64,000 nucleotides of DNA from Daphnia carinata (taxonomy: Eukaryota): NCBI RefSeq assembly GCF_022539665.2, contig NC_081333.1:13020001-13084000 (forward strand). Direction: 5' to 3'. Positions 2,598 to 32,321 of the stretch are shown here, piece after piece (positions within the stretch are counted from its first letter, which is position 1; every line of letters begins with the position of its first letter). A program made the position numbers and the translations under genes. Below the pieces are notes generated by a model. The model made no database searches. It saw only the letters and a list, made by a program, of their open reading frames with translations, and was not told where the DNA came from.

Positions 2598-3757
2598 ACG
2601 TGCACTAAAATTGACGAAACAATGAGTCGTAACTCGAAGCAAACGTCAAGTTTGTTTGCTTCAGCTAAAAACACCAACTCTCCCCGTGAGATGGAGAAAG
2701 TGAGATAAATCGCTTTCTGATATTTAAGATTTAGTAATATTGGTCATTATGGCCAATAAGCCAGAAAAATGCGAGAATTGAGTAAGCATTAAAGATCGAT
2801 GATTTTGAATGAGCTAACACTGCTATACCTGAATGTCATCACTAATAAATAGTATTCAATTCGACTGCGGCCGAAAAGAATAACTGAATGACGTTTGCAA
2901 GAGAAGTTTTTTTTATTAGCGACTTCACCGCGGTGCCCCGCCTTGAATGACATCTTTAATAAACTTGCCGCGCTAGTTATTCTCGATCTTCAACAGCTGT
3001 GTCTAAGGTAATCAGTTTTATTTGGACCGCATAGAAAGAGCGGGCAGACTGATGTTCATTTGTGCCAAGCCGATGGTACAATTTGTACGCGGCTTTTAGT
3101 ACGCATATTTTTAACGGGTTCAGCAAACATTCGTAATTTTAAATTGTTTGGTTGTTTTACCTTCTAACTAACCCCGCTAACAGCGCCAATAAATATAATT
3201 TAATAAATATAATTGTCGTCATAGAAATAACGTAGCCTACTATATATTCATAATATATTTAGATAAAAAGAAAAGAAGGGGGAAAGGCTTCAGAAAAGAT
3301 AATGAGAAATAATGCGATAAGGTATACGTATCGAAAGCGAACAGTGCATCAGGGCGCGATTAGTAAAGCTCTATGATAAAACATTTTATACGCAGCAACC
3401 ATTGAAAGAAACGATTGGAAAGGCACTATGAGCAAATTATTAATTCGATGCAACTCATTTGACAAGCTCTCGTCAACGAGAAAAAAAGTCTCGTTAAAAT
3501 AATGTGATGTGTAATTTTAAGGAGCAAATGAAAAAAACGTTATTGACATTTCACACGGATCAACAGGTATAGACAACGCGATAACAAATTATTATCTGCA
3601 TTGTACTCGTAAGCTATATTTTGTGCTTTACAGGTAAACTGATAAATTCAAAACGATTTCGGATTGCAAGTGAAGGTTCTTCAGTGCAAACGCTATTTCC
3701 CAATAGAAGCTCGTACAAGTTCTTGTCTCGCTAGCCTCGAGTGCCTAAAAGCCTGAA

Positions 3758-9372: not shown

Positions 9373-11077
9373 ATGAGTGGAGAAATCAAGACCCTGGGTG
9401 ATAAACAACTTTTTTGGAAAACCCTTTTTGAAACCAAAAAATTGGCTGCCCAGCTGGCCTCCATCGTGACGAATCACGTTAATGGCGTCACCTATGATGA
9501 CTTGCCCCAGTATGGAAACGTACACGTCGTGGCTCAATCTGGCTCAAATTTAGGTGACAATTTCCAACGCGACACGTTCATTGTGTCTGCACGGCTGTTG
9601 CAAGGCCAACACTTGAGTACTTTCATCAAGGTATTGATTTACCTATGCACTTAACATTTCGAAATTTTACGCTGTTTTGTTTTCAACAGGTACTGCCGTC
9701 GAATTCCTTTCTGCGCCAAGCTGTGGACGGGTCTCGTGTCCATCAACGCGAGATCAACATGTACCAACATTTTTTCGCTCTCCTGCGAGAGATGCATGCC
9801 GACCAACCGATTCCCTTGGACATCCCAGATTGTTACTACACCCATCTGGAGGAAGTTGTCAAGGGCGAGACGGACGGATCGAATACTTGCATCGTACTTG
9901 AAGACTTGAAAACAGAGAATTATCGCATGGTGGATATAACAGGAGGACTTGATTATCGTCATTGCCACATGGCTCTGACATCGCTAGCTCATTATCACGC
10001 TCAAACGCTAAATGCATTGAGAACTTGGAAAGACTCGTCCACAGGAGAGTTATCCAAGGTGCCACTTGCTGCAAAATTTATTTTTGATGAAATGTCCATG
10101 TTTGACATGGGTATCACCCATGCCCTTCAGAATTTTGCCACCACTGTCGTCGATTTTGCCAAACCAGTTAACCGACCTGATGTAAGTATAGCTATTTGTT
10201 TAGATATTTTTTGTATTTGACTGTGCTTAGCCATTGAATTTTACAGCTCCATTGTTGTTCAATCATTAACAGTTAGTCGAGTGGTTGACGGATCTTCAGC
10301 AACGGCTACCGGAGATCATGTTAGTCGACAATGTAGAGACCAGTGGTCCACTGGCTTGCATCCTTCACGGAGATTTTTGGAACAACAACATGCTGTTCAA
10401 ATACGCAGAGCAGACGGATCGCCCCGAAGATAGGACAACGAACGAAACTGCATCCGTAAACATTCCTGTTTCGTTAAAAATGCTCGATTTTCAGCAATCG
10501 AGGATAGGCCATCCACTCAGCGATGTGCTTTACTTCATGTACACGAGTACAATGCCAGAGTTGAGGGAGCAACACATGCTCGTCTTGCTTCGTCATTATT
10601 TCGATACGTTGACGACTGATTTGCTATTTCTCGGCGTTTCACTCGACAACTACACGTGGGAAAATTTTATGGAAGACTACAAGAAAAGATCCTTGATGTG
10701 GATGTTTGCTGGTGTCTTGATGATTACCATGACCCAAAACAAGCAAGCCGCTTCCACTTTACAAGACATGGATGAGGCAGAACAAAAGAAAGGTCCTACA
10801 TCAGGTACAGCAAATTGTTCCTTAAAATATGATTACTATTGTAATTATGATAAAAATTAGTATTGGTGGCAGTTTGATTATTTAATTTCTATACCTTTCA
10901 TATTTTGGCAAACGTGTAGATACGGACGTGGAACCAATGAAGGATGAAAGTGGATTGAACCTCGAAATGGAGGAAAAGATGAAGAACATGATGGCGACTC
11001 AGGCATTGCGTGCTAGTTCGGTTTTGTCGGACCGAATCCTTAAACTGATGGAAGTGAAGGCTTTAAATGATTCATAA
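9373..11077 (+). CDS. EcKL protein, copy 2; 4 exons
   Basis: Exons 9373-9630, 9690-10181, 10273-10804 and 10920-11077 join in frame. Same motifs as copy 1, and near-identical to it over most of its length. Confidence 0.87.
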
Positions 11078-11471
11078 AATGCAGCAGCAGTAATCAATGC
11101 ATCCTGTTTTAAATAGGAGGTTGATTAAATTCGTGAGATTTATTGCCCAGTTGCTAGAACGCTTCCATACTTGTTTATGTGGAACTGCACCGGTCAACGA
11201 GTTCAAAGTGTAACACCAGATCATCAAGAACATGAGGATATCGATTCCCTCTCGCCCACACAAACACATCTACACGCAAAACACATTAATCACCTTGTGG
11301 TGCAATAGACAGCGAGCAATCTTACCAAGAGCATAACAACTGGCTGATATGCCCAAGCTTATTTTGAAACAAAACACACAAATGTGTGGGAAACAAGTCG
11401 AAACCAAAAAGCTTTTCTATTATCTGGCTGCACTTGACTTGAGGTAAACAGCTTATCAATAAAAACTGCTG

Positions 11472-12547
11472 ATCTTTTGTGTTATAACAATTCCAACCCC
11501 CACTTAATGGATGCGATTAAACTCTTGATCGAACTGGACATCGACAAGGATGCAAAAACCAACGGTGGATCCAATGCACTTCATCTTTTGTGTTATAACA
11601 ATTCAAGCCAACACTTAATTGATGCGATTAAACTCTTGATCGAACTGGGCATCGACAAGGATGCAAAAACCAATACTGGATTGAATGCGCTTCATCTTTT
11701 GTGTCGAAACAATTCAAGCCTACACTTAATCGATGCGATTAAACTCTTGATCGAACTCGGCATCGACAAGGACGCTAAGGACAATGATGGATGGAATGCG
11801 CTTCATATTTTGTGTTATTACAATTCCAACCCACACTTAAACGATGCGATTAAACTCTTGATCGAACTGGGCATCGACAAGGATGCAAAAACCAACGCTG
11901 GATCCAATGCACTTCATCTTTTGTGTTATAACAATTCCAACCCACACTTAATAGATGAGATTAAACTCTTGATCGAACTGGGCATCGACAAGGATGCAAA
12001 AACCAACGATGGATCCAATGCAATTCATCTTTTGTGTCGATACAATTCAAGCCAACACTTAAACGATGCGATTAAATTCTTGATCGAACTGGGCATCGAC
12101 AAGTATGCAAAAACCAACGATGGATCCAATGCAATTCATCTTTTGTGTCGATACAATTCAAGCCAACACTTAAACGATACGATTAAACTCTTGATCGAAC
12201 TGGGCATCGACAAGGATGCAAAAACCAACGATGGATCCAATGCACTTCATCTTTTGTGTTATAACAATTCAAGCCAACACTTAAACGATGCGATTAAACT
12301 CTTGATCGAACTCGGCATCGACAAGGACGCAAAAACCAACGCTGGATCCAATGCGCTTCATATTTTGTGTTCTAACAATTCAAGCCCACACTTAATTGAT
12401 GCAATTAAACTCTTGATCGAACTCGGCATCGACAAGGAGGCAAAGAATAAGAATGGATCAAATGCACTCGATTTGAGCCGGCTCAATACAAATTTCACAA
12501 ACTGCAACCTAGACGAAATCTTTAAATCGTATGAGGTGCACTTATAA
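11472..12547 (+). pseudogene. 5'-truncated kinase-ANK paralog: ankyrin exon remnant only (1 partial + 8 full repeats + cap)
   Basis: Intergenic sequence equivalent to 2597 is fused directly into the middle of a repeat ('aaaaactgctga|tcttttgtgt'). The upstream region, kinase exons and normal splice acceptor are missing. Confidence 0.8.
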
Positions 12548-12899
12548 CGATATTAAAGCTTTTCGCAAGATGGACAGGCAAACAGAACGCTACGTTGCAA
12601 CAAACGAGACTCTCGGCAAAGTACGGCTTATTATAGTTATTATAGACAGTGCAACGCACCACATCAGCTGGAGTATGAAGAAAACGAACCGTGTAACACA
12701 AGTGAATAAAAGAGTTTGAGGAAACGTAACGAAAAGTTCCGTAACTTGTCTGCGGAAAAACTATCTCTGTTTGCTGGGCCAACTGCAAAAAGAACGACCA
12801 CACGTCCATTAATACAACTCTGCTATCGTTGGAAAACTCTACTTTAGGAGAAACATGAGGCATCAGGTGAGTAATTGTATGCTATCTATATGGTCACAA

Positions 12900-15050
12900 T
12901 GTTAATCTGTATAGATGCGGAATGAACTTTCAAAAAAGCTCAAAGCCTATTTTTGACAAGCTTTAAAAAGACTAAAATTAATAATTGTTGCGCGCTTTGT
13001 CATGAATTTAAGAAGAAAGTGTAAATAGATAAAATTTGAATGCCATTATGAATCGTTTCACTCGCTCACCTCATTGAAAACCATGCAATCTGCAAATTAC
13101 CATTTGAATATCCTAGTTTCATTTCTCTTGAAATGTCAACCAAAGCAAATTGTTCGAGCATCAAAGTGAGTATTAACTGGTAGAAGCGTTCATTATGAAG
13201 AGTGGTGAAAAGGACGCTACGGATGATAGATCTATGCTTTGTCACGACTGAATAAGCCTTCACTTAAAATATTTGTTTGTAAAATTCCGAGGAAAACCCA
13301 TACCAATCAAAAAAGTTAATTCGATCCTCCACACAATCTAACAGGCGCGCACAGCTCTTTAGTTTTGTAAAATGTAAAACCTGAATACAAAAACTAACCT
13401 GGAAATGCACGACGTGTGATCTTCATCGAAGTAGGTAATCAGCTGGACACTACACACACATTTGATATTTCGACTCTCTCCGATTTACACCCGGAGTTTT
13501 GATGATTGCAGCGGGGTCACCAATGAGCTGACTTGTGGTCCATCGTAAATTGACGTGTAAACATTCCACCACTGATGGACAATCAGCTTGTGGTATGACG
13601 ATGTTTCCAGGGTTTAAACCGTTGGACGGTTTCAAAACCAAGTTTGCCAGTTACATCACCAGGACTTGCTTCATTCAGCAACAAACTAAGCAAAAAGAGA
13701 AACAAATAAAAAAAATCATCATTTAGTGAAAGAGAACGGCACTGTAACATTTAGCTCATTATTAGAGGATAACAAATACTTTGCGGGTGACTCTTTATTT
13801 CTAAAACATTCCCCATTGCAACAGCCCCATGTTGCAAGCAATATTGATCCAAAATGTCCAAGTTTCTTACGACGGCCATGAATCGTAAAATATTGAAATC
13901 GACCAGCGTGCAAGCCTAGTCGCATGATCCAGGCCTTAGATGCGACTGTATTTACCACATAAATGTAACATTTTGCTTTCGTGTCAATAGACTAGTGTTT
14001 TCTAAACAAGTTTACGTCATTGATTGTATGACAAATGTTCTTACCTGCTTTTATTTCCTGCAAAGAAAAGGTGGCAACGCTCTCACAAACTGGCGAAGAA
14101 GCAAAAGGAAAAGGTGCACGTTCATGGGACACAAATTCACTACTGCACATTGTGACACTCCACCAGACCAGAGACTAAAGCGAAAAGCACCAATGCCTAC
14201 TTTAGGCCCGGTAGACATGCTCCGTCTTTCCGGTGGTGGCGCGCGGAACGTATACCCGCCGTTTGTGGCGGGGGAGGGTGGGAGAGAAACTTTACAAGGA
14301 CACTGTAAGATCTCATTAGTGAGAATTTGGAAAATTCAAAAAGACAAAGATGATAAATAATAGACGAAAGGAATACATGGACTACAAAGAACTTCCCCCC
14401 GAGTTGAAAAGAAAACAGGCAATTTAATGTTAAAGATAATAAAACTTACCAGGTTCATTGAACTATTAGTGAGTTATTGTTCCATTGGCGGGAGAACCAC
14501 TCTCCTGTTCTATTACCTTTTGTTCCCGATCAAGCCAACATGCTCTTATTCTCCTTACCTCTAGCGCCAATGGTGAGAAGGCGGGTGTGTTATAAACATG
14601 GCGGAGTGAAACGCAAATATGTCTTTCCATTTTATTTATGCGACATTATAAATTTTCCTATTTAGTAGTACACATACTTAAACGAATTATTTCTAAAAAA
14701 CAACGACTTTTTTTTAAACATTTAGTTATAATGCATTCCAAAACGAAAATGCTCTTCCAACGGTTGTATCGATTCTTAAACGATCAATCAGCGAAATTAG
14801 TACACGTGCCCGACGAAAAGTAGGAGGAATGGTTTTCTCTGAGTGTGGGCAACGAGATTTCTGGGACAATTCGTTAAACTCTCTTCATCCCCCTTCCAAA
14901 AAAAAATTTAATTAAATTAAATATCACGTTGTGATTGTTTACATTTCGAATGTCCTTCTGCACCTGCTGCATCGGTGTGCCAGTCATAATCTGCTATCAG
15001 TTGAGTCCTACCATTTGAACAGATGAGAACTGATGGTTTATGTGATGTAG
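12900..15050. repeat. Diverged copy of the spacer downstream of the kinase-ANK genes (compare ~7050-9050 and ~25900-27750)
   Basis: Colinear shared blocks such as 'cacttaaaatatttgtttg', 'gcaagcaatattgatccaaaatgtccaagtttctta' and 'caccagaccagagactaaag'. Boundaries are approximate. Confidence 0.85.
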
Positions 15051-15071: not shown

Positions 15072-15185
15072 AGTAGTGGACCACTAGCGGGCATCTTGCA
15101 CGGCGATTACTGGATTAATAATATGCTGTTCAAATACGAAGACGATGGCAAACCCAATTCTGAATCAATTGCCTTTAAAATGATT
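15072..15185 (+). pseudogene. Isolated EcKL exon-3 fragment
   Basis: Translates SSGPLAGILHGDYWINNMLFKYEDDGKPNSESIAFKMI, homologous to the catalytic segment of neighbouring EcKL genes, with no flanking exons. Confidence 0.7.
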
Positions 15186-15588: not shown

Positions 15589-17280
15589 ATGAATGGAAAA
15601 AGCAAGTGTCTGAGTGATCGACAGCATTTTTGGAAAGTACTTTTTGAAACCAAAAAATTGGCTGCCCAGCTAGCCTCCTTGGCGACGGATCACATTGATG
15701 GCGTCACCTACGATGACATACCCCAGTACGGAAAAGTGCACGTCGTGGCTCAATCTGGTTCAAATTTAGGTGACAATTTCCAGAGCGATACGTTCATTGT
15801 AACTGCCCGGCTATTGCAAGGCCAACACGAAGAGCCAATCGACGTCTTGAGTACTTTCATTAAGGTATTTATTTCCCTATTCACTTCTAACGAGTTTGAA
15901 ACTGTTCAACGTTCAACAGGTGCTGCCATCTAATTTCTTGCTTCGTAAATCGGCTTACGAGTCTCGCGTTCATCACCGTGAGATCAACATGTACCACCAC
16001 ATCTTCGCTCTTCTACGAGAACTGCATGCCGATCAGCCGATTCCATTAGATGTTCCAGACTGTTACTACACCCATCTGGAACAGGTTGTCAAGGGCGAGA
16101 CGGACGGATCGGGTACTTGCATTTTACTGGAGGATCTCAAATCAGAGAATTATCGTATGGCGGATAAAATACGAGGTGCCGATTATCGCCACTGTCACAT
16201 GGCATTGACGTCATTGGCTCATTATCACGCCTTGACTCTGAACGCTGTGAGAAAATGGAAAGATCCGTCAACAGGAGGATTGTCCAATATGCCACCTGTG
16301 GCGAAATTCATTTTGGAAGAGAAATCCATGTATGACGTAGGAATCATTAAAATCCTTCAAGACTTTTCCATCTCGATCGTCAATTTCGCCAAAGAAATAG
16401 ACAGACCTGGTGTGAGTATGCTGTGAAGTATTCTTGCAATACCTAATGGGCACGAACGCTTTCAATAGCTTTAGGCTTTCCGTTCAAATTCATTGATTAA
16501 CAATCATTACCAGGTAGTTGAATGGTTGTCAGACATACAGCAGCGAATGCCAGAAATCGTTTTAGTCGACAATCTGGAGAGCAGCGGTCCATTGGCTTGC
16601 ATTCTTCATGGGGATTTCTGGAACAACAATATGCTGTTCAAATACGCAGAGCAGTCGGATCGCCCTGAAGATGGAAATAGCGAGAATGCACCAGCAGACA
16701 TTCCTGTTTCACTGAGAATGCTCGATTTTCAACTATCGAGGATCGGCCACCCACTCAGCGACGTCCTTTACTTCATGTACACGAGTACAATGCCGGAGTT
16801 GAGAGAACGTTACATGCTCGTATTACTTCGTTATTATTTTGATACGTTGACGACCGATCTGAGGTTGCTCGGCATTTCGTTGGACAACTACAGCTGGCAA
16901 CACTTTTTGGAGGATTACAAGAAAAGGTCGTTAATGTGGATGTTGATAGGCGTCATGATCGTTTCCATGACCCAAAATAAGAAGGTTGTGACCAGTTTAC
17001 AAGATATGGATGCAGACGAGCAACTAAAAGAGCCCAAACCAGGTGAAAGTTGATTTCCGTTTGGGTATCAGTGCTTTTTAATCGTCTTCATTGTGTTGTT
17101 GGCCTTTTAGTGAACGAAGAGATGGATGTGGAGCCAGTTAAGGGCGAAAGTGGAATGAGCCTCGAAATGGAGGAAACTTACAAGAACATGATGGCGACGT
17201 ATGTACTGAGTGATAGTCCGGCTCTGTCCGATCGAATTCTTAAACTGATCCTGGAGGCTATGGCCTTAAATTGCTCTTAA
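15589..17280 (+). CDS. EcKL protein, copy 3; 4 exons
   Basis: Exons 15589-15864, 15920-16411, 16514-17042 and 17111-17280 join in frame. Contains HGDFWNNNMLF and LDFQ. Confidence 0.88.
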
Positions 17281-17938
17281 ACTGTAGTACCTTAAATTGT
17301 TCATCTTTTCCCGTATCTTCAAGGTTTTCCACCATTTTGCATATTAAAGGTTTGAATAAGATGTGCTAATTGTAGACACACTTCGCAACATAGTAAAAGA
17401 CAAAACGAATACAAGATGGCGTTCTATGTATTTTGTTGCTGCATCAAATAGGTTGACGTAATCACGTATGTTTGATTAGATTCAATAAATGTGATTTACT
17501 GCCTGTTGGTTGGCTGATAACTGTACTTGTTGCACTACTGGCACTGCAGCACAATCAGCGAGTTTGCGTAACACCAGGTCGTTAAGGCGAGATGATAACG
17601 ATTCTCTTACACGCATACCAGATACTACAAAGCAAGGAGTAATACAGAGCGATCGGGTAATCAGACTTTTGCCAATGCGGTGTTGCCATGTGGCATTTAT
17701 TAGAATAAAAATGATTGGAAAATGGCGAAATTTCATGCAAAATATCATTATTTCACAAGGCAATTTATCGATTCGAAATCGATTTTTTAAAATTATTATT
17801 ATACATCTTCTTTCTCTTCAGTGTTCTCTTTAGAGCCAAGGAAGGTATCATTTCCTTCAGAATTTTTTGTTCATCTTTTCTTGGCTCACTGATTTGAAGA
17901 AATAACCCAAATTACATTTATTTGAAATACAATTTTGA

Positions 17939-19303
17939 ATCACCTTGTTGTGCAATCGGCAGGGAGTAACCTTACCAAGCGCATAAAAACTAGCTGATAT
18001 GCCCAAGCTTATTTTGAAACAAAACAAACAAATGTGCGGAAAGCAAGTCAAAACCAAAAAGATATTCTATTATCTGGCTGCATTTGAGTTGAGGTAAACA
18101 GCTTATCAATAAAAACTGCTGAACGTGCACTAAAATTGACGAAACAATGCGTCGTAACTCAAAGCAGCGTCAAATTTGTTTGCTTCAGCTAAAAACAACT
18201 CTCCCTGTGAGATGAAGAAAGTGAGATAAATCGCTTTCTGATATTTAAAATTTAGTAATATTGGTCATTATGGCCAATAAGCTGGAAAATGCGAGAATAG
18301 AGTAAGCATTAAAGGTCGATGATTTTGAATGAGCTAACACTGCTATACCTGAATGTCATCACTAATAAATTGTATTCAATTCGAATGCGGCCGAAAAGAA
18401 GAATTGAATGACGTTTGCAAGAGAATTTTTTTTTATTAGCGACTTCACCGGTGCCCCGCCTTGAATGACATCTTTAATAAACTTGCCGCGCTAGTTGTTC
18501 TCGATCTTCAACAGCTGTGTCTAAGGTAATCAGTTTTATTTGTACCGCATAGAAAGAGAGGGCAGACTGATGTTCACTTGTGCCAAGCCGATGGTACAAT
18601 TTGTACGCGGCTTTTAGTACGCATATTTTTAACGGGTTCAGCTAAACATTCGTAATTTTAAATTGTTTGGTTGTTTTACCTTCTAACTGACCCCGCTAAC
18701 AGCGCCAATAAATATAATTTAATAAATATAATTGTCGTCATAGAAATGACGTACTATATATTCATAATATATTTAGATGAAAAGAAAAGAAGGGGGCAAG
18801 GCTTCAGAAAGATAATGAGAAATAATGCGATAAGGCATACGTGTCGAAAGCGAACAGTGCAGGGCGCGATTAGTAAATCTCTATGATAAAACATTTTATA
18901 CGCAGCAACCATTGAAAGAAACTATTGGAAAGGCACTATGAGCAAATTATTAATTCGATGCAACTCATTTGACAAGCTCTCGTCAACGAGAAAAAAAGTC
19001 TCGTTAAAATAATGTGATGTGTAATTTTAAGGAGCAAATGAAAAAAACGTTATTGACATTTCACACGGATCAACAGGTATAGACAACGCGATAACAAATT
19101 ATTATCTGCATTGTACTCGTAAGCTATATTTTGTGCTTTACAGGTAAACTGATAAATTCAAAACGATTTCGGATTGCAAGTGAAGGTTCTTCAGTGCAAA
19201 CGGTATTTCCCAATAGAAGCTCGTACAAGTTCTTGTCTCGCTAGCCTCGAGTGCCTAAAAGCCTGAAATGTCATCGACTACTGCCGTAAATGTAGATGGC
19301 ATC
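17939..19303. repeat. Near-identical duplicate of the kinase-ANK upstream region and first 12 codons (~2414-3793)
   Basis: Colinear, with few differences, from 'atcaccttgt' to 'gtagatggcatc'. Confidence 0.9.
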
Positions 19304-22300
19304 GAATTTGATCGCAATGATCTTTTGGGTATTGGTGGCTTCGGTTCAGTGCATCGAGGTAAACATAAAGGTCAAAGTGTAGCAATCAAAAGAATTCTGA
19401 AGCTAAATAACAAAGATCAAGTAGTTAACGACGAGTTAAAAATTCTGCAGCAGTTAGATCATCCCAATATTGTTAAATTTGTGCACTTCGCAAGGGATGA
19501 TAACTTCAAGTAAGATTGTTACGTGATAACTATGAATTAAAAAGAGATGCTCTATATGATTTCTGTTATTCAGTTACATTGCTTTGGAATTGTGCGACGC
19601 ATCATTAGATCGGGTATTCCTAAAAGAGGACGATCGTCGGAAATACAAAGGACCTGCATTACCAAATAATTTCGAAATTTTCTACCAGTTAGCCACTGGT
19701 CTCAAATACATTCATTCACAGAACCTAATCCATCGGGACATTAAACCGGAAAACATTCTCATTTCTGTGAAACATACTGATCAAGGTGAAGAGATAAAGA
19801 TCAAGTGGGCTGATTTTGGATTGTCAAGAGCAGTGAATGACAGAGGAACTTTCACAATGAGTGGAATCAGAGGGACTTTTCTTTGGTTTTCTCCCGAAAT
19901 TATGGAAATTATGGGAAACGGCCTGCGCATTGAAGAAACTAGAGGCTCTATCAAAAGCGACGTATTCGCAGAAGGCCTCGTCTTTGGTTACATTCTCTTA
20001 AAAGGAAAACATATCTACGGCGAAAATGCTTTAGAAATTGCGAACAACATCCTGAAAAACGAATCAGTCAATATGAGTGGTAAGTAACCTCTTGAGACAA
20101 GTTCGTATAACTTAAGCATAATATAAAATGTTTAAAACTTTTTAAATATAGAAATTCACAAAAACCATTTAGCACGTAACTTAATAGAACAAATGCTGAT
20201 CAACACATCTGATACAAGAATTACATCTGAACAAGTTGTTAACCAGCTTGCTGACATAAAAATCAAAGTAATAAAACCTCACAAGTTTAACACCTTCATT
20301 GTTATTGAAATTTGGGTTCTCTAACAATGGTTTCTCATTTAGCTCATCGAAAAAGAAAAACACCTGCAACTGCTGTGTAAACATCACACAACAGTTTTTG
20401 GGAATAAAATCAAAAATTTAATCCAACTCGGTGTCGACTTAAACTCAAAGAATGGCGATGAATGGAATGCGCTTCATTTTTTGTGTCGATACAATTCAAG
20501 CCCACACTTAATGGATGCGATTAAAATCTTGATCGATCTCGGCATTGACAAAAACGCAAAAACCAACCATGGATCGAATGCGCTTCATTATTTGTGTGAA
20601 AACAGTTCAAGCTCACACTTAATCGATGCAATTAAACTCTTGATCAAACTCGGCATCGATAAAAACGCAAAAACCAACGATGGATCGAATGCGCTTCTTC
20701 TTTTGTGTCGAAACAGTTCAAGCCCACACTTCATCGATGCAATTAAACTCTTGATCGAACTCGGCATTGACAAAAACGCAAAAACCAACCATGGATCGAA
20801 TGCGCTTCATTATTTGTGTTGTAACAATTCAAGCCCACACTTAATCGATACAATTAAACTCTTGATCGAACTCGGCATCGACAAAAAAGCAAAGGACAAC
20901 GTTGGATGGAATGCGCTTCATCTGTTATGTCGATTCAATTCAAGCCAACACTTAATCCATGCAATTAAACTCTTGATCGAACTCGGCATCGACAAGGACG
21001 CAAAGTCAAACAAGGGACAGAATGCGCTTCATCTTTTGTGTCGATACAGTTCAAGCCCACACTTCATCGATGCAATTAAACTCTTGATCGAACTCGGCAT
21101 CGACAAAAACGCAAAGGACAACGATGGATGTAATGCGCTTCATCTTTTGTGTCGATACAATTCAAGCCAACACTTAAGCGATGCAATTAAACTCTTGATC
21201 GATCTCGGCATCGACAAAAACGCAAAAACCAACGATGGATCGAATGCGCTTCATTATTTGTGTGAAAACAGTTCAAGCTCACACTTAATCGATGCAATTA
21301 AACTCTTGATCAAACTCGGCATCGACAAAAACGCAAAGGACAACTATGGATCTAATGCGCTTCATTATTTGTGTCGAAACAATTCAAGCCCACACTTAAT
21401 CGATGCAATTAAACTCTTGATTAAACTCGGCAGCGACAAAAACGCAAAAACCAACGATGGATCCAATGCGCTTCATTATTTGTGTTGTAACAATTCAAGC
21501 CCACACTTAATCGATACGATTAAACTCTTGATCGAACTCGGCTTCGACAAAAACGCAAAAAACAACCATGGATCGAATGCGCTTCATCTTTTGTGTCGAA
21601 ACTGTTCAAGCCCACACTTAATCGATGTGATTAAATTTTTGATTGAACTCGGCATTGACAAAAACGCAAAGGACAACCATGGATACAATGCGCTTCATGA
21701 CTTGTGTCGACACAATTCAAGCCCACACTTAATCTATGCGATTAAATTTTTGATTGAACTCGGCATCGACAAAAACGCAAAATCCAACGATGGAATGAAT
21801 GCGCTTCATTATTTGTGTTGGAACAATTCAAGCCCACACTTAATCGATGCGATTAAATTTTTGATTGAACTCGGCATCGACAGAAACGCAAAATCCAACG
21901 ATGGATGTAATGCGCTTCATCTTTTGTGTTGGAACAATTCAAGCTCACACTTAATCGATGCGATTAAAATCTTGATCGAACACGACATAGACAAAAACGC
22001 AAAATCCAACGATGGATGGAATGCGCTTCATCTTTTGTGTCGATACAATTCCAGCCCACACTTAATCGATGCAATTAAACTCTTGATCAAAATCGGCATC
22101 GACAAAAACGCAAAGGACAACGATGGAAGGAATGCGCTTCATCGTTTGTGTTGCAACAAGTCAATCCCACACTTAATCGATGCGATTAAATTTTTGATTG
22201 AACTCGGCATCGACAAAAACGCAAAAGCCAACAATGGATGGAATGCGCTTCATTATTTGTGTTGGAACAATTCAAGCCCACACTTAATCGATGCGATTAA

Positions 22301-24317
22301 ATTTTTGATTGAACTCGGCATCGACAAGGATGCAAAGGACAACGATGGATCGAATGCGCTTCATCTTTTGTGTTGGAACAATTCAAGCTCACACTTAATC
22401 GATGCAATTAAACTCTTGATCAAAATCGGCATCGACAAAAACGCAAAGGACAACGATGGAAGGAATGCGCTTCATTATTTGTGTTGGAACAATTCAAGCC
22501 CACACTTAATCGATGCGATTAAATTTTTGATTGAACTCGGCATCGACAAGGATGCAAAGGACAACGATGGATCGAATGCGCTTCATCTTTTGTGTTGGAA
22601 CAATTCAAGCTCACACTTAATCGATGCAATTAAACTCTTGATCAAAATCGGCATCGACAAAAACGCAAAGGACAACGATGGAAGGAATGCGCTTCATCGT
22701 TTGTGTTGCAACAAGTCAATCCCACACTTAATCGATGCGATTAAATTTTTGATTGAACTCGGCATCGACAAAAACGCAAAAGCCAACAATGGATGGAATG
22801 CGCTTCATTATTTGTGTTGGAACAATTCAAGCCCACACTTAATCGATGCGATTAAATTTTTGATTGAACTCGGCATCGACAAGGATGCAAAGGACAACGA
22901 TGGATCGAATGCGCTTCATCTTTTGTGTTGGAACAATTCAAGCTCACACTTAATCGATGCAATTAAACTCTTGATCAAAATCGGCATCGACAAAAACGCA
23001 AAGGACAACGATGGAAGGAATGCGCTTCATTATTTGTGTTGGAACAATTCAAGCCCACACTTAATCGATGCGATTAAATTTTTGATTGAACTCGGCATCG
23101 ACAAGGATGCAAAGGACAACGATGGATCGAATGCGCTTCCTCTTTTGTGTTGGAACAATTCAAGCTCACACTTAATCGATGCAATTAAACTCTTGATCAA
23201 AATCGGCATCGACAAAAACGCAAAGGACAACGATGGAAGGAATGCGCTTCATCGTTTGTGTTGCAACAAGTCAATCCCACACTTAATCGATGCGATTAAA
23301 TTTTTGATTGAACTCGGCATCGACAAAAACGCAAAAGCCAACAATGGATGGAATGCGCTTCATTATTTGTGTTGGAACAATTCAAGCCCACACTTAATCG
23401 ATGCGATTAAATTTTTGATTGAACTCGGCATCGACAAAAACGCAAAAGCCAACAATGGAAGGAATGCGCTTCATTATTTGTGTTGGAACAATTCAAGCCC
23501 ACACTTAATCGATGCGATTAAATTTTTGATTGAACTCGGCATCGACAAGGATGCAAAGGACAACGATGGATCGAATGCGCTTCATCTTTTGTGTTGGAAC
23601 AATTCAAGCTCACACTTAATCGATGCAATTAAACTCTTGATCAAAATCGGCATCGACAAAAACGCAAAGGACAACGATGGAAGGAATGCGCTTCATCGTT
23701 TGTGATGCAAAAAGAAAATCACACACTTAATCGATGCGATTAAATTTTTGATTGAACTCGGCATCGACAAAAACGCAAAAGCCAACAATGGATGGAATGC
23801 GCTTCATTATTTGTGTTGGAACAATTCAAGCCCACACTTAATCGATGCGATTAAATTTTTGATTGAACTCGGCATCGACAAAAACGCAAAAGCCAACAAT
23901 GGAAGGAATGCGCTTCATTATTTGTGTTGGAACAATTCAAGCCCACACTTAATCGATGCGATTAAATTTTTGATTGAACTCGGCATCGACAAGGATGCAA
24001 AGGACAACGATGGATCGAATGCGCTTCATCTTTTGTGTTGGAACAATTCAAGGCCACACTTAATCGAGGCGATTAAACTCTTGATCGAACTCGGCATCGA
24101 CAGGGACGCAAAGGATTACTTTGGATGGAATGCGCTTCATTATTTGTGTGAATACAATTCAAGCCCACACTTAATCGACGCGATTAAAGTTTTGATTGAA
24201 CTCGGCATCGACAAAAACGCAAAGACCTACTTTACTAGATGGAATGCACTCGGCTTGTGTCGGCGTAATATAAATCTTGCAAATTGCAACGTGAACGAAA
24301 TCTTTAAAACCGTATGA
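19268..24317 (+). CDS. IRE1-like kinase fused to 34 ankyrin repeats of 37 aa plus cap (kinase-ANK copy 3); one in-frame TGA at 23703-23705
   Basis: Exons 19268-19509, 19574-20079, 20152-20267 and 20343-24317. Motifs GIGGFGSV, AIK, HRDIKPEN, DFG and SPE. The ORFs before and after the TGA are in the same frame. Confidence 0.82.
20466..24242 (+). repeat. Coding tandem repeat, 34 x 111 bp ankyrin units with higher-order 555-bp and 444-bp blocks
   Basis: First NALH at 20466 and cap NALG at 24243; the 3777-bp difference equals 34 x 111 + 3. Confidence 0.95.
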
Positions 24318-24653
24318 ATTTTAAAAAATGTTAAGGCTGTTCAGAAGAAGAACATACTAAAATAAATTCAAACAAAATTCCCCAGTATGTTGCAAGAAAT
24401 GGGATTCTCGGAAAAATACATCCAAGGAAAACAAATTGATCTTTCTTTTAGTAATCACGTCCTTGCTAAGGAAACAACTAGTTCTTCCGGTCCAAGAAAA
24501 CATATTAGGCGCGCAAAATTACCGAGGAAGGCAGACTTTACAGGGAGGATAAGCGTCAAACTTCAACATCAAACATAATTCTAATTCAAATTTGTCAAAG
24601 TAAAATTAGGTGTTTCAAAGGAAACCGACTCTACTTTGTTTTTAATTTAATTA

Positions 24654-25800
24654 GGGGAGGTAGGGCGTGGTTGGAACACAAAACTTATTTTTGTTCCGTA
24701 CGTTTACAAAAATCGTCCAAGTAAACTAAAAAATATATAGATTTGTAGCCAATTATCTCAGCTACATAACCGTATTTTTTTTGGGTGGGTTCGGCAAAGA
24801 TTAATATCTGCTATGCGTAAAAAACTGGAGGTACCCCAAGTTGTTTCAATTGCCAATTCTACTCGGCAATTGAAACAGGGCGTCTGGGCAATTGAAACGT
24901 GGGTTTTCCCATAAGAGAGCTCCCGGTTTTATGAAGAAACTAAAATGACGATATCTTAGAATCTGGGATACGTATTTTGATGATTTTTTTACAACAATAT
25001 AGAGAATTTTAATCTTTACTTTTTAAGATATTTTATAACTTTCTATACTAACTAAATATTATTTAATGAATTTTAGTAGTTTTCTGAATTAAGTTCGGAA
25101 AACCGTTAGTAATCAAAAGAACGGTTAATAGTATGGAGATAAAATTTTTATAATCGAATATTGCATGTCCAGCCTTACATCATAATTGTTGTTAATGTCC
25201 TTAATTTAATTTTTTAAATTTAATTTCTTTCGTCAACGTTGTAAATAAAAGCACAAACATTGTGGCAGACGATAAATGCCAGCCACCCAGCAGACGAAAT
25301 AAAACACAAAAATAAACAATAATTGAAAAAAGAGCTCTGCTAATACGCTGCGTAGGGAACACTGTTGCCAGACTATAGTATAGGAGACGCGCATACGGAA
25401 GGGTCGCAATTGGAACAAGGTGTTCCAACTGCTCCGACCATGGGTCTTCAAGGAGTTTTAATGTTTATGGGGGATAAAATTTAGCTAGGAAAAAGTTAAT
25501 GTGATCAATTTATAGCTTAAAGAATGACGAATGATTGGAGACCTTTTTTAATGATTTTCTCCATCGTTTTCGGTATGAAAACGAAAAAATTGTCTGCAAA
25601 AAAACGACAAATGGGCAGTCAAAAAACAATTTTCTGGGATAATTCGAAAACTTTTGGATTCTAAAGCCTCCAATTTTTTCTAAAAATGTAGAACCCTAAT
25701 TTCCGTTAGTTCAAATTTTTTAAACAAAATCTCTTACATACTTTAAGTAGTAGAATTTTTGTTTCAATTGCCGCGTGTTCCAATTGCGCCCTACCTCCTC
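24654..25800. mobile_element. Non-autonomous TIR DNA transposon (MITE-like), 1147 bp, TA target-site duplication
   Basis: 26-bp imperfect TIRs (22/26 match): ggggaggtagggcgtggttggaacac and gtgttccaattgcgccctacctcctc. TA lies on both sides (24652-3 and 25801-2). The paralogous site at ~6950 is empty with a single TA. No transposase ORF. Confidence 0.9.
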
Positions 25801-26097
25801 TACATGATACAGAGTACAACGAAAGGAGAAAGCGCTCCACGGTTAGTGTCAAACCGATCGAGCGGAAGCTTGATCTTTGTGATCGCCATGTTCATAGTGA
25901 ATGGATGTGAAATGAACTTAAAAAAGCTCACATCATATTTTTAACAAATTGAGCAAGACTAAAATTAATTACTGTTGCGCGTTGGCATCAACTTAAGGTG
26001 AAAGTGTAAATACATAAAATCTGAATTCCATAACGAATCGTTTCACTCGCCAACCTCATTGAAAACCACGGAATATGCACGTCACCATTTGAGTATC

Positions 26098-26163
26098 CTA
26101 ATTTCATTTCTCTTGAAATATCATCCAAAGCTAATTTCATTTCTCTTGAAATATCATCCAAAG
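26098..26163. repeat. 33-bp direct tandem duplication
   Basis: ctaatttcatttctcttgaaatatcatccaaag occurs twice here and once at the paralogous site near 7251. Confidence 0.85.
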
Positions 26164-27763
26164 CAAAGTGCTGCGAACGTCAAGTGAGGATTAACTGCTA
26201 GATGCAGTTGGTTATAGAGTGGTGAAAAGGACACTATGGATGATAGCTCTTGGCTTCGTCACGATTGAATAAACCTTCACTTAAAATATTTGTTTGCAAA
26301 ATTCCGAGGAAAACGCACACCAATGAAAAAAGGGAATTCAATCCTCCATACAATCTAACGGGCGCGTCCAGCTCTAAAGCTTTATAAAAAATAAAACCCG
26401 AATACGAAAACTAACCTGGAAATGCACCACATAGTCTTCATCGAAAGACAGCAATCTGCTGGACATCACACACACTTTTAGACTCTCCGCTTTAGGTTTT
26501 GACCGTTGGCCGGTTTCAAAACCACATTTGCCAGTTTCATCACCACGACGCGCTTCATTCGCAACAAACTGAGCAAAAAAGAAACAAATAAAAAATCATC
26601 ATTTAGGAAAAAAGTACGGCAATGTAAACATTTAGCTCAATACTATAGACTAACAAATGATCGCAGGTGATTTATTATTTCTAAGACATTCCCCATTGCA
26701 CCAAACACATGTTGTAAGCAATATTGATCCAAAATGTCCAAGTTTCTTATGACGGCCGTGAATCGAAAAGTATTGAAATTGACCATCGTGCAAGCCTAGT
26801 CAAATAATCCAAACTCTGCCTTAGATACAACTGTATTTACGACAGAAATGTAACATTTTGACTACGTGTCAGTAGACTAGTATTGTCTAAACAAATTTAC
26901 GTCATTGATTGCATTACAAATATTTTAACCTGCTTTTATGTCCTGCAAAGAAAAGGTGGCAACGCTCTCACATACTAACGAAGAAGCAAAAGGAAAAGGT
27001 GCACGTTCATGGGACTAAACTTACCACTGCACATTGCGACACTCCACCAGACCAGAGACTAAAGCAGAATGCACTGATCCCTACTACGGGCTCGGTAGAC
27101 ATGCTCAGTCTTGCCGGTGGTGGCGCGCGGAAATTATACCCGCCGTTTGTTGCGGGGGAGGGTGGGAGAGATACTTTACAAGGACACTGTAAGGTCTCAT
27201 TAGTAGGAATTTGAAAAATTCAAAAAGACGAAGATGATAAATAATAGACGAAACGAAAACATGGGTTTCAGAGAACTCCGCTCGATTAGAAAAGGAAACA
27301 GGCAATTTATTGTTAGAGATAACAAAACTTACCAGGTTCATTGAACCATTGTTGAGCTATTGTTCCATAGGCGGGAGAACTCGTGTCTTATTGCCTTTTG
27401 TCCCTGAGCTAGCCAGCATGGTTTTCCTTCCCGTACCTCTAGCGCTAATTGTGAGAAGGCGGGTGTGTTATAAACATGTGCAGTGAAACGCAAATATGTC
27501 CTTCCATTTTCTTTATCCGATATTATAAATTTTTCCTGTCTAGTAGCACACATATTTTAAACGAAACATTTCTAAAATTAAATTTTTTTAACATTTGGAA
27601 TAATGCATTCCAAAACGAAAATAGTCTTCCAATGATTGTATCGATTCTTACACGATCAATCAGCGAAATCGGTACGGTACACGTGCCCGAAGAAAAGTAG
27701 GAGGAATGGTTTTCTCTCAGTGTGTGCAACGAGATGACTGTGACAATTCGTTCAATATTTAGT

Positions 27764-27982
27764 AAGGTCCTACATCAGGTACAGAAATTCGCTCCCTAAA
27801 AATTTATTATTATTGCAATTATTATCAATACTGGTATTGATGGGTGTTTGATTATTTAATTTCTATGCATTTCACATTTTGGCAAACGTGTAGATACGGA
27901 CGTGGAACAAATGAAGGGCGAAAGTAGAATGAGCCTCGAAATGGAGGAAAAGATGAAGAACATGATGGCGACTCAAGCATTG
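27764..27982 (+). pseudogene. EcKL remnant: end of exon 3, intron 3 and first part of exon 4
   Basis: 'aaggtcctacatcag|gtacag...tgtag|atacggacgtggaac...atgatggcgactcaagcattg' matches 10791-11008. Exons 1-2 and nearly all of exon 3 are absent. Confidence 0.8.
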
Positions 27983-28858
27983 AAAACTTGTCCATTACGT
28001 ATCCAAAAAACTATGTCCGGCTTACTCTCAGAATGATAAGGTATGCAACGAATCATAGTATGACTGAGCTAAATTCAACAGTGCATGTTTGACCTACAAG
28101 TTTTTGATTGCATTTGTTTGGCAGGTCTACGTGCCGAATACAAAACATTAACTCGTTAGCCAGGATGCCTGACTTAACTAGACCAAGTGCGATAACGTAT
28201 AGTACATCTATTGTACAAAAATTGCTATTCTAAACCGTGCGTTTTGGTAAAAAGCCTTTTTGTGATAAGCCAGTCGGCCTTGCATCTATTCTTCACACCA
28301 AACAGGTAGACGTAAACATGGAGGTTGATTATATTCAACAAGTGAGATTTATTGCCCAGTTGCTAGGCCATTTACTGCACCAGTCAACGAGTTTGAAGTA
28401 AAACACTAGATCGTACAAGGACGAGATGATATCGATTCCCTCTCTTCCATACAAACACACGAACATGACTCGGCATTTCAACATGCAAAATAGAAAATCC
28501 CAAAAGGCCAGCAGCACGTATAGGAAGTACAGAAGGTCTCTATCATTCTACACGGAGAGATATCGAAAAGCAGATCGTCGTCTATTGGACGTCTTGTGAT
28601 TTTGATTTGCTCACTTGTTTTTATTTTTAGTCGCAGCGTATGTTTTTCGGTGATAACGAGATGGTATTAGAAGAGAAAAATTAGACCTTTGGGATACGCT
28701 TTTATTGGATAGCATTCAGAGTTGTGCTTTTGACATACTACTTCCAATACTTTGATTGCAGTCTTCCAATTTCTTGTAATTCAAACCCCGAGGTAAAACC
28801 TAAATTTAAATATTTTAAATTGAAATAAGAAGACGTATGCAAATCAGAATATCGAAAG

Positions 28859-30466
28859 ATGACTAGACAAGTAAAGAGCTTGGCAGATCGGCAGCATTTC
28901 TGGAAGACCCTCTTTGAGGCGAAGAGCTTGGCTGCCCAACTGGCCTCTCTGGCAACAGATCATATCGATGGCGTCACTTACGATGACCTGCCCCACTACG
29001 GACAAGTGCATGTTGTGGCCGAATCCGCGTCCAGCCTAGGGGACAATTTTATGAGCGATACTTTCATTGTAACAGCTCAACTTACAGCATCGGAAAACAA
29101 GACTCAGACGTTGAGTACATTTATCAAAGTAAATTATTCATTTTCTACGTGGTTCTGCCTGACTTCATCACATTGAAATTTTGGATCTTTTAAAACAGGT
29201 CCTTCCAACGAATGCGCTGTTGCGTCAGGCAGCGTACGAGGCACACACTCATCACCGTGAGATTAACATGTACCATCATTTCTTTGGCCTGCTGAGGGAA
29301 ATGCATGCCGATCAACCGATCCCGCTAGACGTGCCCGATGTCTACTACACTCACATCGAGGAGATGGTCAAGGATGGAACAGATGGTTCGGGTATTTGCA
29401 CGTTGCTCGAGGATCTCAAGGCACAGGGTTATCGCATGGCTGAAAAGGCACTAGGTGCTGATTATCGACACTGTCACATGGCACTGACGTCGTTGGCACA
29501 TTATCACGCCTTAACTCTGAACGTCCTAAGAAAATGGACAGATCCTTCGACTGGAGAATTGTCCAACATGCCATCGACAACTGACTTTTTCTTGAAAGAA
29601 AAGACAATGTACGATATGGGCCTGCTCGAAATGATCCAAGATAATTTCAAGAATATTGTCGAATTCGCTGCAGAGGTCGAAAGACCCGACGTAAGTACCA
29701 AGTGTTACATTTTATTGAATTTTTTTCAAACGTTCTGCTTTGTTAGCTCGTCGAATGGTTAAAGGAACTGGAGGAACGTTTGCCCGACGTTATCATGTAC
29801 GACACAAAGGAAAATTGCGGTCCATTGGCTTGCATCCTTCATGGCGATTTCTGGAACAACAACATGCTGTTCAAATACGATGGTCAGCAAGGAACCAATG
29901 CCAACATTCCAATCGCACTCAAAATGATTGATTTTCAAATTTCAAGAATCGGACATCCAATCAGTGACATCCTTTACTTCATGTACTCGAGCGCTGCCCC
30001 TGAAACGAGAGAGAAACATATGGTGGTTTTGCTCCGTTATTATTTCGATACTCTAACCACTGATTTGAGGTTACTTGGCATTTCGCTCGATGATTATACT
30101 TGGGAAGATTTCTTCAAAGACTACAAGAGGAGGTCGTTAACGGGGATGTTTATGGGCATCGTCGTTTTATCTTTTGTTTTGAACAAGAAAGTGCTGACCA
30201 AGTTGGACGATTTGGATGCAGAGGAGAGGCTCAAAGAACCAAAACCAGGTATTTTAATCAACCTTTAGTTTTTCTAAAACAAGTGTCTTATCATACGTGA
30301 TTCAGAGTCGGACGTGGAACCAGAAAAAGGTGCCAGTGGAATGACGCTCGAATTGGAAGAAACCATGAAAAACATGATGAAATCACAGAAATTGAGCGAC
30401 AATCCAACCCTTACCGATCGACTTTTGAAACTGATCGTAGAAGTTAAAGCCCTCAACAATTCTTAA
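28859..30466 (+). CDS. EcKL protein, copy 4 (most divergent); 4 exons
   Basis: Exons 28859-29128, 29199-29690, 29747-30248 and 30306-30466 join in frame. Motifs GDNFMSD, HGDFWNNNMLF and IDFQ; intron positions match copies 1-3. Confidence 0.88.
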
Positions 30467-30669
30467 TACCTATATTTGCTGGTCGTGTTCCAGCGATTCT
30501 GCGCAGCTCAATTTCCAGCCATTTATTGTTTACGGCATTTTTCGGACGTCCAATAATCGACGTATATATGATTCATGCATTTTTATTCTATATTCTAATG
30601 TTTTTGAAACTAAAACTGGATAGCAAATTTCAAAGACAAATAGAAGGCCAAGGTTCCGTTCAGCGAGGG

Positions 30670-31511: not shown

Positions 31512-32321
31512 TCTCGAGGATTAAACGTTAAAGAAAAATAGCTTAAAAATCAAAGTTTACCTACTTGGTTCAAGCGAATAGTCCTCACATTATGCGCATG
31601 TCCTTTATATATACCGTACAAGTTATGTGTTGTACTTGATGGCAATAGGCGCGTGCTGATAGCTTTGCTTCTTATCGTTTTTTAGAGCAAAATGGACAAC
31701 TGTCATCGCTAAAACGGAAAGGTTATGATTCGTTTAGACGTTGACGTCCTCTATGACAATCGGAAGCGGGCTTTTGCCATGACATCACGAGACGAATTCA
31801 CAAGGATGACGTACGTTGTCAACAATCTGTACGTGCCGGTTGAACACGATCGAAATAAAATGCGGATAATGGCACGTAATGGTCCTAGCTTGACCATCAA
31901 CAAGATAATTGAAGAATCACTCGTTTCAAATGTTTCTTGTCAATCAGTGTGGATAAAGACGTGATATCACTGATGCCCATGTCTTTACAGGCCAAAAACA
32001 TACGAGACACTTGTTTGTCTGAAATCTTAATGGATATTTACCGTGCCCTGTTTTCCTTATGCTGCTCACAACATTGCGACATTGTAAATGGATGGGAGTG
32101 GTACGAAAATGATTTGGGATAAACGCCCCTCTTTTTCTGGACGTAATTAGACAACACCTTAGGAGATCTCACTTGGTACTCTGCGACATATCAAGTGGAA
32201 TTCGACGTTTAAATAAAATGTATTGATTCAAATTCCGTTTCATAACGAAGTAAAAATTAAATCAAGATGAATAGATAATATTTTATTTGACATGCAAGTA
32301 TAGATTCTGATTATATGACAA

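What the first reader, a model, noticed from the sequence alone, without database searches (positions are those of the whole stretch)
19304..24222. Cassette-like divergence: coding block differs while both flanks are near-identical
Seen: copies 1 and 3 are nearly identical over ~1.3 kb upstream and the first 12 codons. They then diverge abruptly: 23 of the remaining 69 exon-1 residues differ by my count, and the introns differ too. They become near-identical again from the ankyrin cap (~6320 and ~24222) through the 3' spacer. Non-coding DNA more conserved than the CDS is the reverse of the usual pattern. Inference: gene conversion or recombination swaps a kinase+ANK cassette between homogenised flanks, or ancient divergent variants are being maintained.
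Basis: partly seen in the sequence, partly recalled or inferred. Interest (0 to 1): 0.72.

Follow-up and report, generated by a model that had tools for sequence, protein, structure and literature searches.

The report
Shuffled water-flea kinase-ankyrin gene array
Two neighbouring kinase-ankyrin genes of a water flea differ by about 16% across their coding block but only 0-5% in the DNA on either side, likely because gene conversion has overwritten the flanks of two old gene variants, a pattern already known from colour-vision and plant resistance genes.

Summary
The pattern is real. Two IRE1-like kinase-ankyrin genes in a Daphnia (D. carinata or very close) tandem array with EcKL genes differ at 3.4% in the 5' flank and 4.0% in the 3' flank. 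From codon 13 through the kinase they differ at 16.5% (dS 0.31, introns 18%), and the ankyrin arrays differ as much; the 5' step is sharp. The UTR intron is identical (0/67), so constraint on the flanks does not explain it. The outermost homologous edges are old again (13%; neighbouring EcKL intron 18%). The core therefore looks like the relic of old variants whose flanks were overwritten by conversion, rather than a cassette put into a young duplicate; import of the core and capture of balanced alleles stay open. Module swapping recurs: copy 1 switches at residue ~210 between two other D. carinata family members, and copies 2 and 3 carry other cap/core combinations. Ankyrin variation sits on the binding face, but positive selection was not shown. 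This is known evolutionary behaviour (opsin divergence peaks, Type I R genes, fungal NLR repeats) in a family I found no study of; an immune role is inference.

The parts
502..2200 (+). EcKL gene a (ecdysteroid-kinase-like), part of the tandem unit
   Evidence: Pfam EcKL; matches D. carinata protein P0080 nearly letter for letter
2413..3757 (+). 5' flank of kinase-ankyrin copy 1; outer 127 bp 13% from copy 3, inner part 0.3-4.7%
3758..6411 (+). Kinase-ankyrin copy 1, intact, 813 aa; exons 3758-3999, 4066-4571, 4645-4760, 4834-6411; 13 ankyrin motifs; P0025-like to residue ~207, P0033-like from ~214 and in linker and cap
6412..8871 (+). 3' spacer of copy 1 (leads into EcKL b)
9373..11074 (+). 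EcKL gene b; 1-2597 v 8872-11471 differ at 4.1%
11288..12547 (+). Copy 2 remnant: 185 bp of 5' flank joined at 11471/11472 to ankyrin repeats (kinase deleted); P0025-type cap
12548..15030 (+). 3' spacer of copy 2, 12-16% diverged from both other spacers (old lineage)
15589..17277 (+). EcKL gene c
17938..19303 (+). 5' flank, 5' UTR (intron 19077-19143) and first 12 codons of copy 3, homogenised with copy 1 except the outer 127 bp
19304..24154 (+). Divergent core of copy 3: kinase exons (CDS 19268-19509, 19574-20079, 20152-20267), short linker, 34 ankyrin motifs; short linker and last full repeat resemble P0021/P0028
23703..23705 (+). Premature TGA (codon 1409) in repeat 30, one of five clustered changes, all to A, against an otherwise identical sister repeat
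24155..27755 (+). Copy-1-type cap, stop (24317) and 3' spacer of copy 3, 4.0% from copy 1
24652..25802 (.). 1.15-kb insertion with 28-nt terminal inverted repeats and TA at both ends; likely non-autonomous DNA transposon, absent from copy 1
27761..28467 (+). 3' relic of an a-type EcKL gene (a0) and its downstream DNA; 12-13% from a and b, last intron 18%
28859..30463 (+). EcKL gene d, end of the array

Best explanation
Copies 1 and 3 are two old variants of a Daphnia kinase-ankyrin gene whose flanks have likely been overwritten by gene conversion, while the coding block between codon 13 and the last ankyrin repeat kept its old divergence. Shown: a divergence profile of old edge, young flank, old core, young flank, old edge; and mosaic combinations of kinase half, linker, repeats and cap among family members. 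Inferred: copy 3 sits at the ancestral place between EcKL c and a, and was the recipient of copy-1-type flanks and cap, in more than one tract on the 5' side. Tracts likely stop at the two conserved ends of the reading frame because 15-20% mismatch and unequal repeat arrays block exchange, and probably because selection keeps distinct kinase and binding-face variants. The proteins likely act as variable recognition kinases (repeats bind, kinase signals); this is untested.
For: Sharp 5' step at codon 13 and 3' step in the last repeat. The 5' UTR intron has 0/67 differences against 38/206 in coding-region introns, p=2e-5 (a spliced join in run X1 supports that intron). Outer edges are old: distal 5' 17/127, EcKL a0 relic 28/221, its downstream DNA 17/147. 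The a/a0 intron at 20/110 equals the kinase introns at 38/206, Fisher p=1.0. The 5' flank gets younger in steps towards the ATG: main split p=0.005, sub-splits p=0.04 each. D. sinensis has consecutive EcKL locus tags in the order d, a, c with no kinase-ankyrin tag between, which places copy 3 at the native c-a-d site. Copy 1 follows P0025 at 45 of 51 informative sites up to residue 207 and P0033 at 12 of 16 after residue 214, p=0.0005. The copy 1/3 cap matches the P0033 cap and the copy 2 cap matches the P0025 cap. Copy 3 has the short linker and CEY last repeat of P0021/P0028. No donor above 84% among 79 hits. The six most variable repeat positions all fall among the 8 concave binding-face positions of PMC8415598, chance 1.2e-5. 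Kinase dN/dS is 0.48 with catalytic motifs intact.
Against: Both flanks have about the same depth (27/787 v 79/1914, p=0.45), which a single event explains more simply than two tracts. All close family kinases are about 68-78% alike, so an imported core would also look old. The protein search did not return the window's own kinase genes, so the missing donor is weak evidence. The tree puts copy 1 with P0025 (100/98) but leaves copy 3 unresolved, and the AU test does not reject copy 1+copy 3 as a clade (p=0.075). There is no converted island inside the core: longest identical run 29 bp, p=0.60. Unlike opsins, the introns are not homogenised, so a mismatch barrier alone may suffice. With the binding-face positions fixed beforehand and minimum change counts, N/S is 0.76 v 0.49, Fisher p=0.45: positive selection is not shown. 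Copy 3 has a premature stop. The copy 1 triplet was chosen after seeing sliding windows (p about 0.012 after correction for 23 triplets); none of 21 copy 3 triplets survives that correction.
Confidence: 0.5

Rival explanations
1. Cassette import: a young copy-1-like unit overwrote site 3, and its coding block was then replaced by ectopic conversion from a dispersed family member. The breakpoints fall at the ends of the reading frame because homology to the donor ends there.
For: Equal depth of both flanks (p=0.45). Breakpoints lie in the two blocks shared across the family, the N-terminal codons and the last repeat. Copy-3-like relatives P0021 and P0028 have distant accession numbers, and P0028 is on another scaffold. 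Kinase halves are exchanged elsewhere in the family.
Against: No donor above 78% for copy 3 among 79 hits. Old edges on both sides show site 3 pre-existed, so two events are needed anyway. Core intron depth equals the local a/a0 intron depth.
Confidence: 0.2
2. Captured balanced alleles: the two cores are ancient alleles of one locus kept by balancing selection. Ordinary allelic recombination eroded the flanks to haplotype-level difference, and one long exchange pasted the second allele over an old paralogous site.
For: About 4% recurs across the region: unit A v B 4.1%, both flanks 3.4-4.1%. A second D. carinata cluster on the same scaffold has EcKL a', c', d' at 94.6, 95.1 and 97.5% protein identity. 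P0033, which by accession number lies near it, has copy 1's linker and cap but a 72% identical kinase. Stepwise depth in flanks is expected between alleles. One tract would explain both old edges and equal flank depth.
Against: It is unknown whether the second cluster is a haplotype or a paralog; its link to P0033/P0025 rests on accession numbers only. The neighbouring single-copy gene CCDC102A has one D. carinata entry among 15 of 18 listed members. Divergence is lowest next to the core, not highest. No population data.
Confidence: 0.2
3. No recombination: one young duplication, with strong constraint on the flanks and fast adaptive change in the coding block.
For: Kinase dN/dS of 0.48 is high. 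The proximal flank holds promoter and UTR.
Against: Synonymous sites (dS 0.31) and introns (18%) diverge as much as the protein. The step falls within one codon. The UTR intron is identical. Copy 1 is closer to another gene (P0025, 84%) than to copy 3.
Confidence: 0.03
4. Assembly artefact: flanks collapsed or polished to a consensus.
For: Window position 1 coincides with the unit boundary (8872) where copy 3's spacer homology also ends, which may mark an assembly break. Many copy 3 repeats are identical. 380 bp of flank differ at one site.
Against: The flanks differ at 47/1329 and 96/2408 sites plus indels and a transposon. Each spacer has private sites (37 and 33) against copy 2. Short-read contigs of run X1 hold copy 3's left junction (17565-18022, 0 differences), a copy-1-type flank, and overlapping pieces across codon 13 (19274-19331 and 19302-19394, 0 differences). 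X1 may be the same sample, and the 58-bp piece is too short to count as a formal bridge.
Confidence: 0.04

Closest known systems
Divergence peaks in duplicates under interlocus gene conversion (human red/green opsins; Fawcett and Innan review PMC3924837, passages read)
   Same: Tandem paralogs whose non-coding DNA is more alike than coding DNA; abrupt peak of divergence.
   Different: In opsins the introns are homogenised and the peak is one exon around known selected sites. Here the whole gene body including introns stays old, and no selected site is known.
Type I plant resistance-gene clusters (I2 homologues PMC4161772, passages; RPP8 family 10.1101/694240, passages)
   Same: Clustered, evenly related paralogs with chimeric structure and blurred allelism; effector-like N-terminal domain plus variable repeats.
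   Different: Animal kinase-ankyrin genes without a nucleotide-binding domain; no resistance phenotype known.
Fungal NLR/het genes with highly conserved internal repeats (Podospora hnwd PMC2873952, abstract and passages; PMC4986451, passages)
   Same: Near-identical repeats with copy-number change (13, 9, 34 motifs), clustering by gene of origin, variable residues on the concave ankyrin face, combinatorial domain assortment.
   Different: No NACHT/NB-ARC domain; positive selection not demonstrated here.
IRE1 / RNase L kinases
   Same: Nearest solved structures of the kinase are IRE1 (E 6.6e-33 for P0033); RNase L also pairs ankyrins with this kinase type (PMC3710099 table row; domain order recalled).
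   Different: No KEN RNase hit, no luminal or membrane segment before the kinase; ankyrins are C-terminal.
Daphnia Pasteuria resistance complex (PMC11500718, passages)
   Same: Hyper-variable Daphnia region with gene gain and loss.
   Different: That complex is a glycosyltransferase island with non-homologous haplotypes; its main text has no mention of ankyrin, kinase or gene conversion.

Membership tests
Interlocus-conversion divergence peak (opsin type) | Flanking non-coding DNA far more similar than the coding block, with abrupt edges | tested here: met
Interlocus-conversion divergence peak (opsin type) | Duplication older than the homogenised DNA implies | tested here: met
   Old outer edges (13%) and a/a0 intron 18%
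Interlocus-conversion divergence peak (opsin type) | Introns within the gene homogenised, peak confined to selected sites | tested here: not met
   Coding-region introns 38/206; longest identical run 29 bp
Interlocus-conversion divergence peak (opsin type) | Paralogs cluster by species in flanks, by ortholog in core | not testable with these tools
   No DNA of orthologous loci was available; no genome held
Type I R-gene-like cluster evolution | Chimeric members from exchange among evenly related paralogs | tested here: met
   Copy 1 mosaic p=0.0005, post hoc triplet; cap/linker reassortment; unresolved star-like tree
Type I R-gene-like cluster evolution | Different genotypes carry different chimeras | tested here: inconclusive
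   Second D. carinata cluster may be a haplotype or a paralog
Type I R-gene-like cluster evolution | Role in pathogen recognition | not testable with these tools
   No functional data; none found in searches
Fungal-type NLR with conserved repeats | Central NACHT/NB-ARC domain | tested here: not met
   Pfam gives only kinase and ankyrin as credible domains
Fungal-type NLR with conserved repeats | High internal repeat conservation with variable binding-face positions | tested here: met
   Within-gene unit distance 12-15%; 6 of 6 most variable positions on the concave face
Fungal-type NLR with conserved repeats | Positive selection on those positions | tested here: inconclusive
   Pairwise pN 0.48 > pS 0.28 on post hoc sites, but a-priori minimum counts give 0.76 v 0.49, p=0.45
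IRE1 / RNase L | IRE1-type kinase domain | tested here: met
   Best PDB sequence hits are IRE1
IRE1 / RNase L | KEN ribonuclease domain after the kinase | tested here: not met
   No such Pfam hit in window exons or in 4 of 4 full-length relatives scanned

The most novel reading that the evidence does not exclude
Daphnia kinase-ankyrin arrays are an unrecognised polymorphic recognition system. Ancient kinase-plus-binding-face variants are kept by balancing selection at shared positions and re-assorted as modules (kinase half, linker, repeat array, cap) between near-identical regulatory flanks: an animal counterpart of Type I R genes and fungal het loci that lacks an NLR core.
Probability: 0.2. 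Interest if true: 0.72.

Novelty: new member of a known kind. Interest (0 to 1): 0.4.

Why it matters
As a sequence pattern it is a clean animal example of a known outcome of gene conversion, with both exchange points inside one reading frame. The larger point is the family: dozens of IRE1-like kinase-ankyrin genes across Daphnia (79 hits), for which my literature searches found no study, show module swapping, repeat-number change and binding-face variability like recognition genes of plants and fungi. If these variants prove to be balanced and tied to parasite resistance, they would give Daphnia host-parasite work a new intracellular candidate beyond the glycosyltransferase loci. In practice, short-read mapping and ortholog calls at such loci will mislead.

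Tried and rejected
Fast adaptive change without recombination was rejected (dS and introns). Trans-species polymorphism, my first reading of the tree, was dropped once the EcKL neighbours showed the window to be D. carinata or very close. Internal mosaic structure of copy 3's kinase: 21 triplets, lowest p 0.006, none significant after correction. Converted islands inside the core: none. A gradient in the 3' flank: not significant, p=0.096. Positive selection on ankyrin binding positions: not shown with a-priori positions. Repeat-level nearest-neighbour distances did not assign arrays to lineages beyond an SNPH motif shared by copy 2 and P0025. The careful 102-row tree did not finish; a quick tree was shown and a careful tree of 17 rows I chose was run. 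Sequencing runs: no RNA holder listed; X2 laid 0 contigs; 19480-19710 had no cover at 97% likeness, which proves nothing. The test of whether the second D. carinata cluster is a haplotig was inconclusive. Three look-ups of earlier scan findings returned nothing. No structure or complex was predicted. Supplements of the papers were not opened and may list these genes.
Full report
Setting. Self-alignment and six-frame translation show a tandem array in the first 30 kb of the window. Pfam finds EcKL genes and kinase-ankyrin genes. All but two of 79 homologs of the copy 3 kinase exon carry Daphnia names; one is Moina and one is unnamed as to species. The four whole EcKL genes match D. carinata proteins P0080, P0104, P0081 and P0090 nearly letter for letter, so the organism is D. 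carinata or very close. Order: EcKL a, copy 1, spacer, EcKL b, copy 2 remnant, spacer, EcKL fragment, EcKL c, copy 3, spacer, EcKL a0 relic, EcKL d. Copy 1 is intact (813 aa). Copy 2 has lost its kinase by a deletion at 11471/11472. Copy 3 has a TGA at codon 1409. Run X1 shows joins at the predicted intron 19509/19574 at 80% likeness, probably from family members, and at a 5' UTR intron at 97% likeness; the run is not on record as RNA.

The observation. It holds. The best change-point lies after 3793/19303, with 47/1365 differences to the left and 176/1068 to the right (p=0.005, floor of 200 permutations). 23 of 69 remaining exon-1 residues differ. Over codons 12-288 dS is 0.31 (CI 0.21-0.42), dN 0.148, ratio 0.48; the three introns differ at 38/206. 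The return to similarity is at about 6251/24154 (26/137 v 10/266), and the 3' flank differs at 96/2408 without a significant internal step (p=0.096). The 5' UTR intron is identical over 67 bp (p=2e-5 against the other introns), so like-for-like sequence differs tenfold in depth across the step. Constraint cannot explain that; the two parts have different ages.

Which part moved? The outermost homologous DNA is old on both sides: the first 127 bp of the 5' flank differ at 17/127 from copy 1 and 16/127 from copy 2, whereas copies 1 and 2 differ at 3/127. The EcKL a0 relic after copy 3's spacer differs at 28/221 and its downstream DNA at 17/147. The a/a0 intron differs at 20/110, the same as the kinase introns (p=1.0). 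Copy 2's spacer is 12-16% from both others. In D. sinensis four EcKL genes carry consecutive locus tags, d, a and c in that order moving away from CCDC102A, with no kinase-ankyrin tag between. Copy 3 lies between c and the a0 relic, so I infer it occupies the native site. The 5' flank becomes younger towards the ATG (13.4, 4.7, 2.4, 0.3%), as nested tracts ending at one barrier would make it. Together this favours flanks overwritten around an old core. Against it, both flanks have similar depth (p=0.45), and any family member would look equally old.

Module swapping. D. carinata proteins P0033 and P0025 have adjacent accession numbers close to a second EcKL set, a', c', d', at 94.6, 95.1 and 97.5% identity on the same scaffold; proximity is inferred from the numbers only. 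Copy 1's kinase is sister to P0025 (100/98, 17 rows chosen by me). It follows P0025 at 45 of 51 informative residues to position 207, then P0033 at 12 of 16, and shares P0033's long linker and cap (p=0.0005, triplet chosen after inspection, 1 of 23 tested). Copy 2 has P0025's cap and an SNPH repeat motif found in these two only, among 8 arrays compared. Copy 3 has the short linker and CEY last repeat of P0021/P0028 but the copy 1/P0033 cap, which makes it the likely recipient at the 3' end. The AU test does not reject copy 1+copy 3 as a clade (p=0.075). No protein is closer than 78% to copy 3 or 84% to copy 1, but the search also failed to return the window's own kinase genes, so a donor is not excluded.

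Why the core persists. The core is one uniform block: longest identical run 29 bp, p=0.60. A mismatch barrier (established knowledge, recalled) and arrays of 13 v 34 repeats would stop tracts once variants are 15-20% apart. Selection is plausible but not shown. Both kinases keep the Gly loop, Lys, HRD and DFG motifs. Among 53 full 37-residue repeat units, the six most variable positions correspond to ankyrin consensus positions 1, 3, 8, 11, 12 and 32 (register and the TPLH numbering), all within the eight concave-face positions in Table 1 of PMC8415598 (passages read); chance 1.2e-5. Pairwise pN exceeds pS there (0.48 v 0.28; 38 of 53 units, post hoc sites). With the eight positions fixed beforehand and minimum change counts (51 of 53 units), the ratio is 0.76 against 0.49 elsewhere, p=0.45. 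Variation is concentrated on the binding face, as in ankyrins generally; positive selection is not established.

Artefact check. The flanks carry many private differences, indels and a transposon-like insertion. X1 contigs hold copy 3's left junction exactly, a copy-1-type flank piece (19 differences, 5 gaps), a third flank variant (5 differences in 180 bp) and exact overlapping pieces across codon 13. X1 may be the source sample, and none of the listed pieces is a formal bridge from private flank sites into the core. The repeat count and the stop in copy 3 could not be checked.

Comparison with what is known. Lower divergence in non-coding than coding DNA of converted duplicates is described for opsins and other genes (PMC3924837, passages). 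Chimeric, evenly related cluster members define Type I R genes (PMC4161772, passages), and RPP8 combines conversion with balancing selection (10.1101/694240, passages). Conserved, shuffled repeats with variable binding faces are described for fungal NLRs (PMC2873952 abstract and passages; PMC4986451 passages). The proteins are not IRE1 or RNase L proper: the kinase is IRE1-like but no RNase domain is found. Searches listed no paper on this Daphnia family. PMC12102780 and PMC11500718 do not use the words ankyrin or kinase in their main text. The library lacks most subscription papers, and supplements were not read.

Verdict. A real, sharply bounded mosaic produced by exchange among old kinase-ankyrin variants. 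Most likely flank homogenisation around an old core (0.5), with cassette import (0.2) and captured balanced alleles (0.2) open. A known kind of evolution in an apparently unstudied family; interest 0.4, rising to about 0.7 if the variants prove to be balanced recognition alleles.

Noticed in passing
window 23703-23721: The premature stop in copy 3 is one of five substitutions within 17 bp, all to A, against a sister repeat that is otherwise identical. Either a clustered mutation or a consensus error; if an error, copy 3 may be an open gene.
   Followed up: partly
window 22131-24017: Copy 3 repeats 16-32 are mostly exact copies of four unit types in a period-5 and period-2 arrangement: a very recent expansion, or assembly inflation.
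   Followed up: partly
window 24652-25802: 1.15-kb element with 28-nt terminal inverted repeats, TA at both ends and internal short inverted motifs; likely a non-autonomous DNA transposon.
   Followed up: partly
window 1 and 8872: The window starts at exactly the unit position where copy 3's spacer homology ends (8872/27755); may reflect a contig or gap boundary at a repeat branch point.
   Followed up: no
P0104-P0108, P0033, P0025: D. carinata RefSeq holds a second EcKL cluster on the same scaffold, 94-98% identical in protein: an uncollapsed haplotype or a segmental duplicate.
   Followed up: partly
window 1-2597 v 8872-11471: EcKL a v b divergence is patchy (1 to 22 differences per 200 bp), suggesting conversion tracts there too; pN/pS about 0.31.
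   Followed up: partly
kinase residues 46-48, 78, 125, 234, 238 (copy 1 numbering): Hypervariable positions among 11 close family kinases (6 states each), with a strongly variable stretch at about residues 230-250; not mapped on a structure.
   Followed up: no
window 15072-15185: Short fragment of a further EcKL type, closest to P0109/P0091.
   Followed up: no
window 30500-36200 (-): Cluster of related LPMO/chitin-binding genes next to the array.
   Followed up: no
window 57350-59100: AT-rich region with ~170-bp tandem units and inverted copies; not examined.
   Followed up: no
P0001, P0003, P0006 and others: Many family members have two or three kinase domains in one chain, suggesting fusion of tandem copies or merged gene models.
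   Followed up: no
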